Of a stretch of 20,000 bases of DNA, positions 12,930 through 19,301 are shown one piece after another. A program made the position numbers and the translations under genes. The notes beneath the pieces are model-generated. The model was not told the origin of the DNA. It saw only the letters and a list, made by a program, of their open reading frames with translations, and did no database searches. The stretch is taken from IMG/VR virus record IMGVR_UViG_3300027793_000087. The stretch is one strand, 5' to 3'. This DNA comes from an uncultured virus (IMG/VR IMGVR_UViG_3300027793_000087). Its lineage: Duplodnaviria > Heunggongvirae > Uroviricota > Caudoviricetes. Every line of letters starts with the position of its first letter. Position 1 is the stretch's first letter.

Positions 12930-13319
12930 CTACTCTTTGGCGGCCTTGAGCTGCTTGATCAGGTCGTTGACGGCGCCGGAGAAATCTACCACGACGTCGG
13001 CCTTGAGCTCGACTTTGTTCTCACGCGTCTCCCTGTAATCGGATTGGAATTGACCGCGGAGTGCGATCTCCGCCAGCCGTGAGTTGTAGGCCTTGTTGCC
13101 GACGTTTGCCAGCAGCTCGCGCTCCCAATGCGCCTGGCTGTGTACGATGGCCAGCTCGAGGGCGTCGGCGAAGTCTGGGTACTTTTTCTTCCAGTCCTCG
13201 GCCACGCCCTTGGTGATGCCGATCGCGGAGAACATCATCTTCTGCGATGCACCCGTCTTGCCCATCTCGATTAGTGTATCGCACATCTCGGGCTTGAATG
13301 TGTACTTTCGTTTTGACAT
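12930..13319 (-). CDS. Putative terminase small subunit / HTH DNA-packaging protein
   Basis: KYTFKPEMCDTLIEMGKTGAS...AIGIT...WKKKYPDFADALELA...WE pattern resembles small terminases. Confidence 0.55.
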   Translation of the reverse strand: MSKRKYTFKPEMCDTLIEMGKTGASQKMMFSAIGITKGVAEDWKKKYPDFADALELAIVHSQAHWERELLANVGNKAYNSRLAEIALRGQFQSDYRETRENKVELKADVVVDFSGAVNDLIKQLKAAKE

Positions 13320-13507
13320 TACTTTTTGGCCGTCTTGGCCGACTCCCTGAATGCCTTCGCGGTGGGCGCTCCCTCCGATCCGGGCTTACGCATTTTTTCT
13401 CCTGACCCTCTTTCTATCCGCTCTCGTTTGGCGTGGATGTTGGCGTACAGGCCGGGCTTTGCGGACCCGCCGGCTGCCATCTTGGGTAGTGTTTTAAAGT
13501 CGTCCAT
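13319..13507 (-). CDS. Small basic protein (62 aa) with an N-terminal leader ending MAAGG
   Basis: ATG 13507 after SD AGGTGA; MDDFKTLPKMAAGG-SAKPGLYANIHAKRERIERGSGEKMRKPGSEGAPTAKAFRESAKTAKK; TAATG coupling to the next gene. Confidence 0.75.
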   Translation of the reverse strand: MDDFKTLPKMAAGGSAKPGLYANIHAKRERIERGSGEKMRKPGSEGAPTAKAFRESAKTAKK

Positions 13508-13527
13508 GTGTATCACCTGATGATATC

Positions 13528-13563
13528 GAAATGTCGGCACTTATTGATAACTGCCGACATTTC
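13528..13563. promoter_or_regulatory. 12-bp hairpin immediately 3' of the tmRNA-like gene
   Basis: GAAATGTCGGCA-cttattgataac-TGCCGACATTTC, beginning 5 nt after the encoded CCA on the - strand. Confidence 0.65.
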
Positions 13564-13568
13564 CGTAT

Positions 13569-13648
13569 TGGTGGAGCCGCCGGGATTCGCACCCGGGTCC
13601 GCCGGGTTCGCTTCGGTTTTATCCCGTCGTCGAAACTATTCCGGCCCC
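13569..13648 (-). ncRNA. tmRNA-like RNA reduced to the tRNA-like domain (80 nt, no tag reading frame)
   Basis: GGGGCCG GAAUAGUUUCGAC GACGGGAU AAAACCGAAGCGA ACCCGGC GGAC CCGGG UGCGAAU CCCGG CGGCUCC ACCA. It has a 7-bp acceptor stem with a G3-U wobble, discriminator A, encoded CCA, a stemless D-loop ending UUCGAC, and GGAC before a 5-bp T-stem. Confidence 0.8.
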
Positions 13649-13649
13649 G

Positions 13650-13781
13650 TTATTTTTTCTTCTCTGCCTTCTTCTCGGCTTTTTTCTCGGCAGGCTTGTC
13701 TGCCTTCTTGTCGGCGGCAAGGGCCAGGGGTGATGCGGTTACGAATGCCGCTGCCAGCAGAGACGCGATAATCTTTTTCAT
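13650..13781 (-). CDS. Small secreted Lys/Ala/Glu-rich peptide, 43 aa (not in ORF track)
   Basis: MKKIIASLLAAAFVTASPLALA-ADKKADKPAEKKAEKKAEKKK; SD AAAGGA; classic Sec signal peptide with an A-L-A cleavage site. Confidence 0.8.
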   Translation of the reverse strand: MKKIIASLLAAAFVTASPLALAADKKADKPAEKKAEKKAEKKK

Positions 13782-13797
13782 TGGCTTTCCTTTAGGG

Positions 13798-13892
13798 TGG
13801 TGGGTGCCGGGGATTCCACCCGGCCTCCTCTTCGTTTTAGAGCCCGCGAGTCCTGGGCTTGATAGGGCGTCTCACGACGTGCCTACCTCTAC
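13798..13892 (-). ncRNA. Candidate structured RNA / leader with several hairpins, ending in a T-arm-like hairpin and ACCA
   Basis: GGUAGG-CA-CGUC-GUGA-GACG-C-CCUAUC; AGCCC...GGGCU; GCCGGG-UGGAAUC-CCCGGC followed by ACCCACCA. Confidence 0.45.
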
Positions 13893-14084
13893 CTATGCAG
13901 AAATGATACCGTCGCCGCCCTTGATCTGTTCCTTGGCCTGCTCGGCCTTCTTTCTATCGGCGAGTGCCTGGTTCAGTATGACCTTGGTCATGGCCGCGGC
14001 CCGCTCCTGGCGCTCTGCCTCCTTGGTCGGGTCGGTCATAGGTCGCAGGTACTTGGCCAGCTTGCGTCTCATCTCTCGGTTCAT
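13893..14084 (-). CDS. Hypothetical protein, 63 aa
   Basis: ATGA coupling and SD GGAG; helical, charged sequence. Confidence 0.65.
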   Translation of the reverse strand: MNREMRRKLAKYLRPMTDPTKEAERQERAAAMTKVILNQALADRKKAEQAKEQIKGGDGIISA

Positions 14085-14326
14085 ATCTTCTTCTCCCTAA
14101 CCATTTTCTCGTAAATGTCCCACAGCTTCTGGCATCTCAGGTTGTGGATCTCCTGCAGGCCCAGGAGCAGGTTTGCCACCTGGTCCTCGCTCAGCTTATC
14201 CATGCCGTCGTAGTACTGCTCCCAGATCAGCTTGATGTCCTCGCTGGTCGTCCAGGCGGACATGATGGCCTGCTCCAGGTCAAACCTGTCTAGGCTGCTT
14301 TTTAGGCTTTCTGTTTCCTGCTGCAT
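14081..14326 (-). CDS. Hypothetical phage protein
   Basis: ATG 14326 after SD AAGGAGG; DRFDLEQAIMSAW...DQVANLLLGL...LW pattern. Confidence 0.7.
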   Translation of the reverse strand: MQQETESLKSSLDRFDLEQAIMSAWTTSEDIKLIWEQYYDGMDKLSEDQVANLLLGLQEIHNLRCQKLWDIYEKMVREKKI

Positions 14327-14848: not shown

Positions 14849-16176
14849 GCCTTCAGTGCTTCCAGTACCGCCTCCTGCGCGTCAATTTTCCCGTCCAGGA
14901 CGCGTATCACCTGCTCGTCGATCGTCTTCGCCGCAAGCAGGTGGTGAATGATTACCGGCCTCGTCTGGCCCTGGCGGTACACGCGAGCGTTTGCCTGGAT
15001 GTAATTCTCCGAGCTCCAGGGCAGGTCGTACCAGACCACCTGCGCCAAATCGCCAGCGTTGCACTGTAGGTTCAGACCGATGCCGCCCGATTGCGGATGT
15101 GCGACAAGCATTTTAATTTTTCCGTTTCTCCAGTCCTCCATGTTGTTAGAGTTTAATTCTTGCGCGTCAGGAAACGCGGCCAGTATTTTTGCCAGGGCCG
15201 TTTTGTAGTGATAAAAGACTAGCGTTGGGTGCGGATTCTCCTCAACCAAAGACTCCAAATACTCGAGCTTTGTCTTATGGGCCTCAGCGTCACCATCTTC
15301 GGTGTAAAGGGTGCCACTGGTAAATTGTAAAAGCTTGTTGGCCAGCGCGGCGGCAGATGCCGCAGTAACCTCTTTAAGATCAATCTCACTGACCATCTCC
15401 TTTTTAAGTTGTTTGTACTTCGACATCGCCGAGTCGTCTAGCTCGATGTTGTGGTAGAGCTTTGTCAGCTTCGGCAGCTGCAGGTAGTCCTCGGCGCGCA
15501 GGCTGAAGCAGATGTCGGAGATCTTATCCAGTATCTCTTTGTCCATGCCTGGGCGTACTGCCCACTTGTAAACAACGTGCGTGTGTCGGTTTCGTTCGGC
15601 GGCGTACATGTACCTGTCTCGAAACTTTGTAAGCGTCGTTTCCAATCGCTGTCCGAGGTCCAGTATTCCAATTTGCGACCACAGGTCGCCAAGGCCTTGT
15701 GGCGTTGGTGTGCCCGTGCAGATGATTCGGCGCTTAAACTGTTTTAGCACCTTCTTTATCGCCTTGAATCTCTTCGTGCTGGGGTCCTTGAACCGGCTTG
15801 ACTCGTCGATTACCAAATAATCGAACAGCCCATCTGGCCAGTGTTCCACCAGCCAGGGGACGTTGTCCACGTTGATCACGTAGATGTCTGAGTTGCTGTA
15901 GAGCGCGCTCAAACGCTGCGCGGGTGTTCCCATCACGAGCGCCACTCGGAGGTCTGACAGGTGGCTCCACTTTTGGCACTCCTGGGCCCAGACCGACTCC
16001 GCTACTCGTTTTGGGGCAATCACCAAGGTCCTCCCCAAAGAGCTCTCCTTGATGATGGTGAGCGCCGTCACAGTCTTTCCCAGGCCCGGCTCCAGGAAAA
16101 GGCCAACGTGCGGCAGACTTTTTGCCCGGTGTATCAGGCGGTTTTGGTAGTGGTGCAAGTCTGTCTTTGAAAGCAT
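14845..16176 (-). CDS. SNF2-family (SF2) helicase
   Basis: LHHYQ, LEPGLGKT (motif I), LVIAPKRVA, VIDESS (motif II), TGTP, SGGIGLNLQ, QANARVYRQGQ. Confidence 0.93.
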   Translation of the reverse strand: MLSKTDLHHYQNRLIHRAKSLPHVGLFLEPGLGKTVTALTIIKESSLGRTLVIAPKRVAESVWAQECQKWSHLSDLRVALVMGTPAQRLSALYSNSDIYVINVDNVPWLVEHWPDGLFDYLVIDESSRFKDPSTKRFKAIKKVLKQFKRRIICTGTPTPQGLGDLWSQIGILDLGQRLETTLTKFRDRYMYAAERNRHTHVVYKWAVRPGMDKEILDKISDICFSLRAEDYLQLPKLTKLYHNIELDDSAMSKYKQLKKEMVSEIDLKEVTAASAAALANKLLQFTSGTLYTEDGDAEAHKTKLEYLESLVEENPHPTLVFYHYKTALAKILAAFPDAQELNSNNMEDWRNGKIKMLVAHPQSGGIGLNLQCNAGDLAQVVWYDLPWSSENYIQANARVYRQGQTRPVIIHHLLAAKTIDEQVIRVLDGKIDAQEAVLEALKA

Positions 16177-16564
16177 TTAAAACCTCTTTTCGTTTGTCGT
16201 GCAGCCAGTCGGCCACGGCGTACAATTCTTTTTCTGTTACGTCTTGTTTTATTTTGTTTGCAATAAAGGATATGAATACAACGTTGCCTTGCACGTAACC
16301 AAGCTCTGGCACGACCCTGTCCAGAGACGGAGAATTTTCTTCAGGTCCGTGGCCTTTGTCTGGGGTTTCCCACATAAACTCGGTACCAAAGATAGGGCAC
16401 CGTTCGCCCGCTATCAAATCTAAAAACTCGTAAGTAAGATCAAACGGGATGCCGTTAGTCTTGCAGCGACTTTTTATTTTTGAGAGGCTCGTCCGAAGAT
16501 AACCCTCTCTGGTTTTTCTGTAGCTTCGGTACCAATCACGGTGTTGTTTGTTCGACCAGGCCAT
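15734..16564 (-). CDS. HNH-like endonuclease (domain about 16180-16564) with a long C-terminal run-on into the helicase gene
   Basis: GIPFDLT...CPIFG...SPSLDRVVPELGYVQGNVVFISFIANKIK is typical of phage HNH-type nucleases. AT-richer than its neighbours. Confidence 0.7.
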   Translation of the reverse strand: MAWSNKQHRDWYRSYRKTREGYLRTSLSKIKSRCKTNGIPFDLTYEFLDLIAGERCPIFGTEFMWETPDKGHGPEENSPSLDRVVPELGYVQGNVVFISFIANKIKQDVTEKELYAVADWLHDKRKEVLNAFKDRLAPLPKPPDTPGKKSAARWPFPGAGPGKDCDGAHHHQGELFGEDLGDCPKTSSGVGLGPGVPKVEPPVRPPSGARDGNTRAAFERALQQLRHLRDQRGQRPLAGGTLARWAVRLFGNRRVKPVQGPQHEEIQGDKEGAKTV

Positions 16565-17202: not shown

Positions 17203-17395
17203 CGGAGATTATCCCGTTAAATTTTTGGTAGTAGCGAGGCTGGATGATCAGTATGCCATCTTCTTTTGTAAACCTTAGGTAGCAGACGCCGTGACTCTCA
17301 ACAATGCCCAAGACATCACTCAGGCACTGATCCGCGGCTTCGGCAGTAGATGACTCCAACAGCTTATCGACCCCTACCATGACTATTTTTGGCAT
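17195..17395 (-). CDS. Hypothetical protein
   Basis: Fills the gap in the operon with short overlaps at both ends. Confidence 0.6.
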   Translation of the reverse strand: MPKIVMVGVDKLLESSTAEAADQCLSDVLGIVESHGVCYLRFTKEDGILIIQPRYYQKFNGIISDA

Positions 17396-17634
17396 TGTTT
17401 TCTTTCTTCTACGTTTCTCATTATTCGCCTCTTCTCGTCATCGTTGGCGTAATACCAGGCCTCTATCTCGTTCAGCGTACGGAAGCAGCCGTGGCAGATC
17501 TTTTTCTCAAAGTCGATCTCGCACACGCTGACGCATGGCGATGTCGGGCAGCCGAATATCACCTCCCAGTTTTTATCAAACTGCTCCTGGTCCTCGATCG
17601 GTCGCTGCCTGGATCCCTTACCTGCCTCGTGCAT
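17383..17634 (-). CDS. DUF1289-like Cys-cluster protein with a short N-terminal GKGSRQRP module
   Basis: SPCVSVCEID...CHGCFRTLNEIEAW...DDEKRRI; SD GGAGG. Confidence 0.75.
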   Translation of the reverse strand: MHEAGKGSRQRPIEDQEQFDKNWEVIFGCPTSPCVSVCEIDFEKKICHGCFRTLNEIEAWYYANDDEKRRIMRNVEERKQCQK

Positions 17635-18745: not shown

Positions 18746-18918
18746 GCCTGCTCCTCAAAGTCGAACCACTCGTAGATCTGTTCCATGACAGCCGATTCGA
18801 TGTGGTGCCGCACGTCGTGCTCGGAGGGGTTGTCGTTGTGCTTGTGCGCTCGGTTCCAGCCGATCTCGGTGCCGTCCTCGACGCACATCAGAAGCACGCT
18901 CTCAAACTTTGGTTTCAT
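18742..18918 (-). CDS. Hypothetical phage protein
   Basis: Start reassigned to ATG 18918 (ATGA overlap with the acpS stop); VEDGTEIGWNRAHKH...IYEWFDF. Confidence 0.7.
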   Translation of the reverse strand: MKPKFESVLLMCVEDGTEIGWNRAHKHNDNPSEHDVRHHIESAVMEQIYEWFDFEEQA

Positions 18919-19301
18919 GTTGCCTTCCTTTCGCATATAACCGTTGCCGTTACGTAGTCGTCGCTGTCGGAGATGGTGACGTGGTGCACCCACTCCAGCG
19001 AGCCCATCTGGATCGTTGCCTTGCCAGACAGTGCCAGGTAGGGCGCGCCGTCGTCGTGGTTGAGTACTTCCACCTGTCGAACATCGAGCTGTGGGATCCT
19101 GGAGGCCTTGACGAATGCCTCCTTTGCCGCGAATCTCCTGGCCAGGTAGTTCACGGCCAGTAGCTTGTCATCCACCATCTCCGCGTAGACCTGCAGCTCT
19201 CGGTGCCCGAGTACCTGGTGCGCCAGGGCCCACCCCATCTTCTTGGACATGTCCGCGATTCTTTTTATCTGCAGTATGTCGGTGCCAATGCCGTGTATCA
19301 A
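18915..19301 (-). CDS. acpS: Holo-[acyl-carrier-protein] synthase (4'-phosphopantetheinyl transferase)
   Basis: IHGIGTDI...RI, LARRFAAKEAFVKA, VEVLN...GAPYL, HVTISD...ATVI; 128 aa, typical AcpS length. Confidence 0.92.
   Translation of the reverse strand: MIHGIGTDILQIKRIADMSKKMGWALAHQVLGHRELQVYAEMVDDKLLAVNYLARRFAAKEAFVKASRIPQLDVRQVEVLNHDDGAPYLALSGKATIQMGSLEWVHHVTISDSDDYVTATVICERKAT

What the first reader, a model, noticed from the sequence alone, without database searches (positions are those of the whole stretch)
13569..13648. Phage mini-tmRNA: complete tRNA-like domain with no mRNA-like domain
Seen: an 80-nt - strand element with the tmRNA 5' end (GGGGCCG, 13-nt stemless D-loop ending UUCGAC) and 3' end (GGAC, T-arm, CGGCUCC-A-CCA). 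The two ends are joined by only 28 nt: a short imperfect helix (GACGGG/CCCGGC) and a loop. The G3-U pair and discriminator A are intact. Established: these are the AlaRS determinants, the D-loop/GGAC elbow is the SmpB-binding region, and bacterial tmRNAs are ~350 nt with pseudoknots and a tag ORF. Natural tag-less forms are known mainly from jakobid/oomycete mitochondria. Inference: the phage makes an alanylatable SmpB/EF-Tu ligand that cannot tag. It could be a decoy inhibiting host trans-translation, a tag-free rescue factor, or a decoy against anti-phage tRNA/tmRNA nucleases. Retention of both paired ends argues against a simple attP remnant.
Basis: partly seen in the sequence, partly recalled or inferred. 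Interest (0 to 1): 0.9.

Follow-up and report, generated by a model that had tools for sequence, protein, structure and literature searches.

The report
Phage tag-less mini-tmRNA gene
This freshwater phage carries a real 80-base gene for only the alanine-accepting, tRNA-like end of the bacterial ribosome-rescue RNA (tmRNA); the type is already known from mycobacteriophage DS6A, and this copy imitates the two-piece tmRNA of an alphaproteobacterial host and probably interferes with the host's rescue-and-tagging system.

Summary
Window 13569-13648 (- strand) matches Rfam tmRNA end to end (54.5 bits, cut-off 47, E 4e-19). About 300 internal model positions are replaced by a short stem-loop, and ARAGORN finds no tRNA or tag.

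It is a conserved gene, not debris. Ten of 41 related phage loci carry it in the same slot, with compensatory changes in the acceptor and T stems. At least 120 further viral contigs hold 62-90-nt elements of the same design. Across 89 distinct sequences 97% of cells pair, against 73% in shuffles.

Three complete relatives have no integrase, so an attP remnant is unlikely.

New here: the acceptor stem, GGAC, T arm and ACCA are identical to two-piece alphaproteobacterial tmRNAs, and the D-loop/T-loop signature (AUAG/UGC) is the alpha type. The phage RNA is therefore a one-piece mimic of a two-piece host TLD. Freshwater metatranscriptome contigs cover it.

The kind is already published: the DS6A "TLD only" tmRNA (Hudson 2014, citing Mao 2009, where a similar RNA inhibits tmRNA). 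This scan has also flagged such elements on many other genomes.

Most likely function: competition with host tmRNA for SmpB and stalled ribosomes. This is inferred, not tested.

Verdict: new member of a known kind, moderate interest.

The parts
13569..13648 (-). TLD-only (tag-less) mini-tmRNA gene, 80 nt. Acceptor 5' strand 13648-13642; D-loop 13641-13629; helix 2a 5' strand 13628-13623; 16-nt A-rich loop 13622-13607; helix 2a 3' strand 13606-13601; GGAC 13600-13597; T arm 13596-13580; acceptor 3' strand 13579-13573; discriminator A 13572; encoded CCA 13571-13569.
   Evidence: Rfam RF00023 54.5 bits, E 3.7e-19. Own model R1 finds it in 10 of 41 related loci. Covariation shown. The 32 nt at 13569-13600 are identical to two-piece tmRNA genes.
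13650..13781 (-). Small ORF of 43 aa (signal peptide plus Lys/Glu/Ala-rich tail). Its TAA stop lies 1 nt before G1 of the mini-tmRNA. It is an optional part of the inserted cassette.
   Evidence: ORF list. A 44-aa homologue sits in the same place in L039/L040, and is absent in L032, L034 and L036, which still carry the RNA. No Pfam or PHROG family.
13806..13824 (-). Leader hairpin (6-bp GC stem, 7-nt loop) between the conserved motif and the cassette.
   Evidence: Read from the sequence. The same hairpin, with loop changes, is present in L034 and L039. No Rfam match.
13866..13887 (-). Conserved single-copy motif just after the stop codon of the upstream 63-aa ORF. RNA contigs begin inside it, at about 13873. 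It looks like a promoter or a processing site.
   Evidence: One match in the window. One copy each in G001, G002 and G003, none in G005. Present in all relatives inspected, with or without the RNA. Metatranscriptome contigs end at 13873, 13859, 13872 and 13815, with no cover from 13880 to 14200. This is a weak hint only.
13529..13562 (-). Hairpin with an 11-bp stem 7 nt downstream of the CCA. It could be a partial terminator or a processing site.
   Evidence: Read from the sequence. RNA contigs run through it into the next gene. Rfam tmRNA_permuted gives a weak sub-threshold match across 13526-13599 (25.8 bits, E 0.01).
13319..13507 (-). Next gene downstream (phrog_16028, DUF6321-like core). 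The probable start is the ATG at 13507, preceded by AGGUGA.
   Evidence: PHROG hit 6e-28. Syntenic in 37 of 41 related loci.

Best explanation
The element is a functional phage gene for a tag-less, TLD-only tmRNA.

Shown:
- It is conserved under structural selection in a lineage of roughly 64-68-kb phages with terminal repeats and no integrase.
- Its acceptor stem, GGAC, T arm and ACCA are identical to those of two-piece alphaproteobacterial tmRNAs.
- RNA contigs from freshwater metatranscriptomes cover it together with its neighbours.

Inferred:
- It is transcribed from a start near 13873 as part of a longer RNA.
- RNase P and the 3' tRNA-trimming enzymes cut it out as an 80-nt CCA-ended RNA.
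- Host AlaRS charges it with alanine through G3:U70 and A73.
- Host SmpB and EF-Tu bind it.

Because it has no resume codon or tag frame, it would compete with the host's two-piece tmRNA for SmpB and for stalled ribosomes. That would lower or block tagging of nascent proteins for proteolysis during infection. I put confidence that it is a selected TLD-only tmRNA gene at about 0.9. I put confidence in the interference mechanism at about 0.5. The single figure given for this field (0.55) is for the whole statement, mechanism included.
For: Identity: Rfam tmRNA 54.5 bits against a cut-off of 47, matched globally. ARAGORN finds no anticodon arm or tag.

Conservation in relatives: of 41 loci found through the neighbouring exonuclease, 10 carry the element. 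It is identical in L007 and L008. It is 81 nt in L032 and L034-L040, with paired changes in the acceptor stem (CCG/CGG, UCG/CGA, UUG/CAA) and the T stem (CCGGG/CCUGG). The flanking leader and trailer are not conserved.

Of the 97 unique elements, 89 have a perfect 7-bp acceptor stem starting GGGG. Eleven of 13 sampled loci pass the Rfam tmRNA cut-off. On 89 distinct sequences, 97.0% of cells pair against 73.2% in shuffles (0 of 500 shuffles reach it). Sixteen of 18 pairs change on both sides, and slid controls give 54-64%.

Charging determinants: with a pattern that left the 3' end free, G3:U70 is kept in 80 of 88 elements, A73 in 80 of 88, and CCA is encoded in 37 of 88.

Elbow: D-loop AG goes with T-loop UGC in 24 of 24 elements, and GG goes with U or C in 64 of 64.

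Host mimicry: the 32-nt 3' half occurs exactly in 18 metagenome loci. Sixteen of these are two-piece tmRNA genes: 13 called by ARAGORN with tags such as ANDNYAEEMALAA, and 3 more by Rfam alpha_tmRNA at 211-232 bits. The other 2 are the element itself. The host-type coding piece starts with the same GGGGCCG.

Not an attP: there is no tyrosine integrase in 0 of 4 records, 3 of them complete genomes with terminal repeats, and no serine recombinase in 0 of 5.

Expression hint: contigs from four RNA libraries cover 13200 to about 13815-13873 at 100% identity and nothing beyond 13880.

[quoted passage not shown] 2009, which I could not read).
Against: - No experiment here shows a mature 80-nt RNA, alanylation, SmpB binding or any effect on tagging. 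Contigs cannot show ends, strand or level, and RNA libraries can contain DNA.
- The cited inhibition did not need charging. The strong retention of G3:U70 and A73 is therefore not explained by pure SmpB titration, and points to a step on the ribosome.
- The element is dispensable. Thirty-one of 41 related loci lack it within the DNA fetched, including most of the group at 81-90% exonuclease identity, whose slot goes straight from the motif into the next gene.
- No benefit to a phage of blocking trans-translation has been shown.
- The alignment used for covariation was fitted to the model, holds a few true tRNAs, and many rows are related. The retrieval patterns also fixed part of the T loop and, CTCCACCA.
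- The host assignment is an inference from RNA identity. No bacterial genome was named.
Confidence: 0.55

Rival explanations
1. Tag-free rescue factor. Ala-TLD with SmpB and EF-Tu enters ribosomes stalled at mRNA ends and takes over the nascent chain. The peptidyl-TLD is then released (ArfB, Pth after drop-off, or a second rescue round). Ribosomes are freed and the protein gains one alanine but no degradation tag. This could matter when phage or host nucleases create many truncated mRNAs.
For: The alanine identity elements are kept when not imposed by the search: G3:U70 in 80 of 88 elements and A73 in 80 of 88. This suggests charging matters. CDS-less mitochondrial tmRNAs that co-occur with SmpB are thought to help with incomplete mRNAs (PMC11915505, passage read).
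Against: The phage brings no SmpB of its own (0 of 5 records over the cut-off), so the RNA must share the host pool with tmRNA. No release factor, Pth, ArfB-like or AlaRS gene lies among 133 ORFs flanking such elements in 50 loci. The only reported test of a similar RNA showed inhibition, not rescue.
Confidence: 0.2
2. RNA punctuation signal. The tRNA-like fold serves mainly to recruit RNase P and 3' trimming enzymes, so that the polycistronic transcript is cut at defined sites. In the window the cut would fall right after the stop codon of the 43-aa ORF. The excised RNA itself would have no job.
For: In the window the stop codon lies 1 nt before G1. Fifteen of 62 unique elements have a same-strand frame of at least 40 codons ending -1 to +5 nt from G1. 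The figure is 4.1% for random positions and 7 of 76 for tRNA genes in the same loci.
Against: RNase P needs only an acceptor/T minihelix. That would not explain retention of the tmRNA-specific D-loop, the GAC...GGAC junction, the D-loop/T-loop covariation, G3:U70 and A73, or identity to the host TLD. L032, L034 and L036 keep the RNA with no ORF in front of it. Many elements sit in tRNA arrays (13 of 60 loci have tRNA genes nearby).
Confidence: 0.1
3. Decoy against host defence. The RNA would soak up or mislead a defence component that recognises tmRNA-like or tRNA-like RNA, for instance nucleases that cut tRNA or tmRNA, or predicted systems with SmpB-like domains.
For: Type II and III-A CoCoNuT systems are predicted to carry SmpB-like domains that may bind tmRNA (PMC11090510, passages read). 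A phage anti-CRISPR protein associates with tRNA and tmRNA fragments (PMC11662646, passages read). The patchy, accessory distribution among close relatives is typical of counter-defence genes.
Against: No defence system is known to be triggered or blocked by a TLD. No anti-defence gene was recognised next to the element. This is wholly speculative.
Confidence: 0.07
4. Integration site or decaying remnant. The 32-nt identity with host ssrA would be an attP core, or the element would be a deletion derivative of a once full-length phage tmRNA that is drifting.
For: Phages often integrate into tmRNA genes and carry their 3' ends (PMC9004378 and PMC10865867, passages read). The 3' 32 nt are identical to bacterial tmRNA genes. 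The 5' D-loop and helix differ from the host type.
Against: No integrase or serine recombinase in three complete relatives with terminal repeats. The element lies in the replication module. The 5' acceptor strand is present and covaries with the 3' strand among relatives. None of the 41 related loci holds a full-length tmRNA.
Confidence: 0.03

Closest known systems
'TLD only' (CDS-less) tmRNA of Mycobacterium phage DS6A (Hudson, Lau and Williams 2014, PMC4131195; Nawrocki, Petrov and Williams 2025, PMC11915505; Mao et al. 2009, not read)
   Same: Both are phage-encoded, one-piece RNAs of about 80 nt. Each has an acceptor stem with G3:U70 and discriminator A, a stemless D-loop, a short helix 2a closed by an A-rich loop (both contain AAAACC), and a T arm. 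Neither has a tag frame or pseudoknots. I located the DS6A element in record JN698994 at 28478-28560, unannotated, between gp33 and gp34. It matches Rfam tmRNA globally at 43.2 bits and my model R1 at 44 bits.
   Different: The phage lineage and host are unrelated: an actinophage of a host with one-piece tmRNA, against an uncultured freshwater phage whose RNA copies the alphaproteobacterial two-piece type. The window element encodes CCA and passes the Rfam cut-off; the DS6A element does neither. DS6A is temperate (its integration site is listed in PMC10865867), whereas relatives of this phage have no integrase.
Alphaproteobacterial two-piece (permuted) tmRNA, Rfam RF01849 alpha_tmRNA
   Same: The acceptor stem (GGGGCCG/CGGCUCC), GGAC, T arm (CCGGG UGCGAAU CCCGG) and ACCA are identical. 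The D-loop is of the same AAUAG type.
   Different: The bacterial RNA is made from a circularly permuted gene as two chains and carries a tag frame (ANDNYAEEMALAA and similar) and pseudoknots. The phage RNA is one continuous chain in standard order, with nothing beyond helix 2a.
CDS-less organellar tmRNAs (jakobid and oomycete mitochondria, RF02544; about 65-bp plastid forms of Mallomonadaceae)
   Same: They are natural tmRNA derivatives reduced to the tRNA-like domain. Jakoba libera has a 're-permuted' one-piece gene (PMC11915505, passage read).
   Different: They are the organelle's own and only tmRNA, working with its own SmpB. The phage RNA is an extra copy introduced beside an intact host system, so it is a competitor rather than the resident rescuer.
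Full-length phage tmRNAs (for example mycobacteriophage Bxz1 group, Bacillus phage G, two-piece tmRNA of methylophage Melnitz, PMC9004378)
   Same: They are phage-borne ssrA-derived genes, often near tRNA genes. Marine phages carry alpha-type two-piece forms.
   Different: Those keep a tag reading frame and can perform full trans-translation. This one cannot.

Membership tests
tmRNA (Rfam RF00023, standard one-piece) | tRNA-like domain: 7-bp acceptor stem with G3:U70, discriminator A, CCA, stemless D-loop ending UUCGAC, GGAC junction, T arm | tested here: met
   Global match at 54.5 bits against a cut-off of 47. Each part was read in the sequence.
tmRNA (Rfam RF00023, standard one-piece) | mRNA-like domain: resume codon, tag reading frame ending in a stop codon | tested here: not met
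   Only 28 nt lie between UUCGAC and GGAC, and 12 of them form helix 2a. ARAGORN reports no tmRNA or tag peptide. 304 model positions are missing.
tmRNA (Rfam RF00023, standard one-piece) | Pseudoknots PK1-PK4 and long helix 2 | tested here: not met
   There is no sequence to form them.
Phage TLD-only (CDS-less) tmRNA, type DS6A | Phage-encoded one-piece RNA consisting of little more than the TLD, with helix 2a closed by a short loop | tested here: met
   The phage context is shown by PHROG and Pfam hits to primase, helicase, exonuclease, SSB, RNR and PolA.
Phage TLD-only (CDS-less) tmRNA, type DS6A | Structure maintained by selection (compensatory changes among homologues) | tested here: met
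   (the phage's own lineage). (89 distinct sequences, 16 of 18 pairs with two-sided changes).
Phage TLD-only (CDS-less) tmRNA, type DS6A | Inhibits host tmRNA / binds SmpB | not testable with these tools
   Known only from the citation of Mao et al. 2009 in PMC4131195, and that was for a 'similar molecule' in E. coli.
Alphaproteobacterial two-piece tmRNA (RF01849) | Circularly permuted gene giving an acceptor piece and a coding piece with a tag frame | tested here: not met
   The element is in standard 5'-to-3' order and is one piece. Only a weak sub-threshold tmRNA_permuted match (25.8 bits against 47) spans its 3' half and the downstream hairpin.
Alphaproteobacterial two-piece tmRNA (RF01849) | Alpha-type TLD sequence (D-loop AAUAG, T loop with G at position 2) | tested here: met
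   The consensus lines of RF01849 and the loci L313, L317, L319 and L320. The 32 nt are identical.
tRNA-Ala | D stem and anticodon arm with an alanine anticodon | tested here: not met
   ARAGORN finds 0 genes. No RF00005 match at E up to 10.
attP core of an ssrA-integrating phage | Integrase gene in the phage, with only the 3' part of ssrA needed | tested here: not met
   0 of 4 records have PF00589 and 0 of 5 have PF00239, including 3 complete genomes. A covarying 5' strand is present.

The most novel reading that the evidence does not exclude
The mini-tmRNA and the gene in front of it may form a self-contained translation-termination module. RNase P excision of the RNA would leave the upstream mRNA ending at its stop codon, or even inside it. 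In the window the mRNA would end 1 nt after the TAA of the 43-aa ORF. In 6 other lineages the G of TAG is G1 of the RNA. Ribosomes there would face a nonstop-type end. The Ala-TLD made from the same transcript would then resolve that end by adding one alanine with no degradation tag, protecting the phage product from the host's tagging system. On this reading the phage uses a one-piece copy of its host's two-piece TLD as a private, tag-free terminator.
Probability: 0.1. Interest if true: 0.85.

Novelty: new member of a known kind. Interest (0 to 1): 0.5.

Why it matters
Trans-translation is the main ribosome-rescue and protein-quality pathway of bacteria, and it is a drug target. The held literature names one phage RNA that strips tmRNA down to its tRNA-like end, and cites one functional test from 2009. 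This instance shows three things. Such genes occur in uncultured freshwater phages of Gram-negative hosts. They are kept by selection, including the alanine identity pair. They can be tailored to the host: here a single chain copies a domain that the host builds from two RNAs.

Together with at least 120 similar elements in viral contigs, this suggests that manipulating host ribosome rescue is a common phage strategy that genome annotation misses. ARAGORN does not report these elements, and the DS6A element is unannotated in its record. The 80-nt RNA is also a ready natural probe for SmpB, AlaRS and stalled-ribosome biology in bacteria with two-piece tmRNA.

Tried and rejected
1. My first three collection patterns required 7 nt, rather than 6, between the T loop's TCC and CTCCACCA. 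They therefore missed the window's own type. Their counts (0, 4, 4) are artefacts and were replaced.

2. MFE folding gives z-scores of -0.3 to -1.8 and mispairs the T arm in the window RNA. It is not informative.

3. The blastn 'distant' search of 13300-14100 against cultured phages matched only the downstream protein gene, not the RNA.

4. A genome-contig scan for the 5' 20-mer pattern gave 21 hits. By inspection, 20 are chance matches in unrelated DNA and 1 (L291, a 2.9-kb contig binned in a MAG) is another mini-tmRNA. No full-length bacterial tmRNA shares this exact 5' pattern, because the host type has a D-loop one base shorter.

5. The search for T7-type RNA polymerase (PF00940) found nothing, but its control rang nowhere, so it says nothing.

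6. The conserved motif at 13866-13887 is not a repeated phage promoter. It is single-copy.

7. The class-level genome search found the 32-mer at 1 mismatch or fewer in 2 of 401 genomes.

8. The nearest cultured phages share at most 36% PolA identity, so they give no host clue.

9. Pfam on 133 ORFs flanking such elements showed no recurrent partner. The neighbours are HNH endonucleases, terminases, DnaB helicases and lysins.

10. L316 looked like a possible tandem intermediate (RF00023 47.1 bits upstream of a coding piece). By its sequence it is an ordinary GC-rich permuted tmRNA.

11. The parts of the window without RNA-contig cover (13880-14200) are not evidence of absence.

12. Paper searches for 'mini-tmRNA' and for TLD-only, tagless, CDS-less, minimal or truncated tmRNA found no paper describing a broad phage class. 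The supplement of PMC11915505 held as text had no match for 'no CDS' or 'Phage'. Its tables may list further phage forms that I could not see.
Full report
**What is there.** On the - strand, window 13648-13569 reads GGGGCCG, GAAUAGUUUCGAC, GACGGG, AUAAAACCGAAGCGAA, CCCGGC, GGAC, CCGGG-UGCGAAU-CCCGG, CGGCUCC, A, CCA. Rfam's tmRNA model (RF00023) matches exactly these 80 nt from model position 1 to 374. The score is 54.5 bits (cut-off 47) and E is 3.7e-19. Ten nt stand in for 304 internal positions. It is the only gathering-level RNA hit in the 20-kb window. ARAGORN reports no tRNA or tmRNA, and a permissive Rfam scan shows no tRNA match. MFE folding does not distinguish the RNA from shuffles (z -0.58), so the argument rests on homology and covariation.

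**Context.** The window is 100% contained in a 21-kb linear IMG/VR record. On the - strand it holds a phage replication module: primase, SNF2 helicase, DUF2800 exonuclease, Enc34/gp2.5-type SSB, class II ribonucleotide reductase and family A DNA polymerase. The nearest cultured phages share at most 36% polymerase identity.

The RNA gene sits between a 43-aa ORF and an 11-bp hairpin (13562-13529). The ORF encodes a signal peptide plus a Lys-rich tail, and its TAA stop lies 1 nt before G1.

**Relatives of this phage.** The neighbouring exonuclease retrieved 41 related viral loci. Gene order from helicase to exonuclease is conserved. A covariance model built from the element (R1) finds it in 10 of the 41 loci:
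- It is identical in L007 and L008.
- It is an 81-nt homologue in L032 and L034-L040, where the exonuclease is 71-76% identical.

The homologues differ by paired changes. The acceptor stem reads GGGGCCG/CGGCUCC, GGGGUCG/CGACUCC or GGGGUUG/CAACUCC. The T stem reads CCGGG/CCCGG or CCUGG/CCAGG. The sequences before and after the RNA are unrelated or rearranged.

The RNA always lies just downstream of a conserved single-copy motif (13866-13887) that follows the stop codon of the 63-aa ORF. In most relatives at 81-90% exonuclease identity, this motif is followed directly by the next gene. The RNA, with or without the small ORF, is therefore an accessory cassette in a fixed slot. None of the 41 loci has a full-length tmRNA or a tRNA by ARAGORN.

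Three complete relatives (64-68 kb, direct terminal repeats), two of which carry the RNA, have no tyrosine integrase and no serine recombinase. They also have no SmpB hit above the cut-off. This, together with the covarying 5' strand, disposes of the attP-remnant reading.

**A large class.** My first three collection patterns were mis-specified for the window's type, and their low counts are void. A corrected pattern fixed UUCGAC, a 10-40-nt gap, GGAY, part of the T loop and CTCCACCA.
- Of 97 unique elements (62-90 nt), 89 have a perfect 7-bp acceptor stem beginning GGGG, although the 5' strand was not part of the pattern. One has 6 of 7 pairs, and 7 have 5 or fewer. Several of those 7 lie in full or permuted tmRNA genes.
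- Eleven of 13 sampled loci pass the Rfam tmRNA cut-off at 47.9-74.5 bits.
- Some close helix 2a with a UUCG-type tetraloop. Others, like the window, have an A-rich loop containing AAAACC.
- Thirteen of 60 loci have tRNA genes within 2.5 kb, some directly adjacent.

R1 aligned 107 matches, 89 of them distinct. On that alignment:
- 97.0% of cells form standard pairs, against 73.2% in shuffles (0 of 500 shuffles reach the observed value).
- Sixteen of 18 pairs show changes on both sides.
- Slid controls give 54-64%.

There are caveats. The alignment is fitted to the model, it holds a few true tRNAs, and many rows are related.

Of its 91 unique elements, 88 have at least 6 of 7 acceptor pairs. 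Among these 88:
- G3:U70 is kept in 80, and G3:C70 occurs in 8.
- The discriminator is A in 80.
- CCA is encoded in 37.

The alanine identity set is therefore retained when the search does not demand it.

**The alpha-type signature and the likely host.** In 90 unique elements, a D-loop with AG instead of GG always goes with a T loop reading UGC (24 of 24). GG goes with U or C at that position in 64 of 64, and 2 elements have neither. The window belongs to the AG/UGC type.

The exact 32-nt 3' half of the element occurs in 18 metagenome loci:
- Thirteen are permuted tmRNA genes by ARAGORN, with tags such as ANDNYAEEMALAA, ANDNYAEEVALAA and ANDNFAQEYALAA.
- Of the 8 loci I gave to Rfam, 5 match alpha_tmRNA (RF01849) at 211-238 bits, including three that ARAGORN missed.
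- Two (L310, on a 65.6-kb contig, and L324) are the element itself.

So 16 of 18 are two-piece tmRNA genes, many of them on contigs of 100-700 kb. In L313 the coding piece begins GGGGCCGAAUAGGAUCGAC. The acceptor stem, GGAC, T arm and ACCA are thus identical between phage and bacterium. The D-loop is one base longer in the phage, and helix 2a differs. The RF01849 consensus itself shows the AUAG D-loop and a G at the second T-loop position.

The phage RNA is therefore a single-chain, standard-order copy of a domain that the presumed alphaproteobacterial host assembles from two RNAs. In a sample of 401 genomes of that class, 2 have the 32-mer with 1 mismatch or fewer.

**Expression.** Seven freshwater metatranscriptome runs hold part of 13300-14100. 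Contigs of four of them, laid on 13200-14200, match at 100% from 13200 up to 13873, 13859, 13872 and 13815. None covers 13880-14200.

The shared boundary falls inside the conserved motif, at GAGACGCC. The contigs bridge the small ORF, the RNA, the hairpin and the next gene. By the tool's own standard this is only a weak hint of a transcript starting near 13873. Contigs show neither ends nor strand nor level.

In two runs, short contigs of depth 180-225 match the element's last 33 nt plus 2 nt downstream with one mismatch. They continue upstream into sequence like the acceptor piece of L317-type alpha tmRNAs. An abundant bacterial tmRNA with nearly the same 3' half is therefore present in the same waters.

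**What is known.** In the papers held, Hudson, Lau and Williams (2014) list 'Mycobacterium phage DS6A (TLD only)'. [quoted passage not shown]

Nawrocki, Petrov and Williams (2025) count 79 phage tmRNA sequences and 9 'standard, no CDS' forms. They mention DS6A, about 65-bp plastid forms and the re-permuted Jakoba gene (PMC11915505, passages read). Its held supplement had no match for my terms. Mao et al. 2009 is not held.

I located the DS6A element, unannotated, at 28478-28560 of JN698994. It scores 43.2 bits, below the Rfam cut-off.

Searches for 'mini-tmRNA' (0 papers) and for six synonyms found no description of a broad phage class. This scan's own earlier notes report the same kind of element on many other genomes: 203 notes in at least 163 genomes. 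I reached the DS6A precedent independently before reading them.

**Mechanism.**

*Shown:* a selected, TLD-shaped, host-matched RNA gene with alanine identity elements.

*Inferred:* excision by tRNA-processing enzymes, charging by AlaRS, and binding of SmpB and EF-Tu.

The best-supported function is competition with host tmRNA for SmpB and stalled ribosomes, reducing tagging. This rests on the cited E. coli experiment with a similar RNA. That experiment did not need charging. Retention of G3:U70 and A73 therefore suggests an additional step on the ribosome, which keeps the tag-free-rescue rival alive.

A pure processing-signal role does not explain the tmRNA-specific features. A decoy role towards defence proteins with SmpB-like domains (PMC11090510, passages read) is possible but has no support here. 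Pfam on 133 ORFs flanking such elements in 50 loci shows no SmpB, Pth, release-factor, AlaRS, RtcB or integrase partner.

**An observation worth a test.** In 15 of 62 unique elements with enough upstream DNA, a same-strand frame of at least 40 codons ends -1 to +5 nt from G1. In 6 of these the G of TAG is G1 itself. The rate is 4.1% (518 of 12,700) for random positions, and 7 of 76 for tRNA genes in the same loci. The 15 come from about nine lineages by my reading of the list.

RNase P cleavage would then leave the upstream mRNA ending at or inside its stop codon. That is the kind of end on which tmRNA acts. The window (TAA, C, then G1) fits this pattern. Whether the RNA protects its upstream gene product from tagging is the most novel reading left open.

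**Verdict.** The element is real, conserved and correctly read by the first stage. It is a new member of a known but barely studied kind. Its distinctive feature is that it is a one-piece imitation of a two-piece alphaproteobacterial TLD. Function remains inferred.

Noticed in passing
window 13866-13900 (-); same motif in L009-L047: A motif of about 35 nt (TCTGCATAAGTAGnAGTAGGCACGTCGkGAGACGCC) follows the stop of the 63-aa ORF in all relatives inspected. It is single-copy per genome. RNA contigs of four runs begin at or just downstream of it, three of them at 13859-13873. It may be a dedicated promoter or an RNA processing site.
   Followed up: partly
window 13650-13781 (-); L039 4065-4199: A 43/44-aa ORF encodes a signal peptide with an ALA-AD cleavage-like site and a tail of the KKAEKK type. 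It ends in an A-rich run (AAGAAAAAATAA) that abuts the mini-tmRNA. It is conserved in two sub-lineages and absent in three others that keep the RNA. It matches no family.
   Followed up: partly
window 13526-13599 (-): Rfam tmRNA_permuted gives a weak match (25.8 bits, E 0.01). It aligns the 3' arm of the downstream hairpin plus UUUCGA with the 5' end of a coding piece. This could be chance, or a relic of an ancestral permuted gene. Relatives do not share it.
   Followed up: partly
loci L048-L167 (viral contigs): A D-loop AG pairs with a T-loop UGC in 24 of 24 elements, and GG with U or C in 64 of 64. This is a tertiary-contact covariation that marks alpha-type TLDs. About a quarter of the sampled phage mini-tmRNAs are of this type.
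   Followed up: partly
loci L052, L053, L063, L064, L076, L117, L122, L061, L066, L084, L107, L119 and others: Upstream ORF stop codons abut or overlap G1 of the mini-tmRNA in 15 of 62 unique elements. In six cases the two share the G of TAG.
   Followed up: partly
L168 (DS6A record JN698994, 28478-28560): The published TLD-only tmRNA of DS6A is not annotated in the GenBank record. It scores 43.2 bits, under the Rfam cut-off of 47, and does not encode CCA. Standard pipelines would miss it.
   Followed up: yes
L291 (2.9-kb contig binned in an uncultured-bacterium MAG): Another mini-tmRNA has the window's acceptor stem but a different interior, a CGCAAUU T loop and no encoded CCA. It is probably a phage contig placed in a bacterial bin.
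   Followed up: no
L055 2230-2572, L081 2501-2843, L106 2501-2824: ARAGORN calls full-length tmRNAs with odd tags (a 30-aa Gly/Ser-rich tag, and AWDYNPMWVQCSA) that end on elements my scripts read as 83-85-nt mini forms. Either these are real long forms or they are ARAGORN over-extensions.
   Followed up: no
window 15734-16564 (-) and relatives L009, L014, L020-L023: An HNH/endonuclease VII-like ORF (phrog_3322) overlaps the start of the SNF2 helicase frame by about 440 nt in the window. In the 82%-identity relatives an extra 1.4 kb lies between the helicase and the 102-aa ORF, which the window lacks.
   Followed up: no
window 18915-19301 (-) and 17383-17634 (-): The phage encodes a 4'-phosphopantetheinyl transferase (ACPS, 1.5e-13) and a DUF1289 protein (9e-19). 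These are unusual auxiliary genes for a phage replication region.
   Followed up: no
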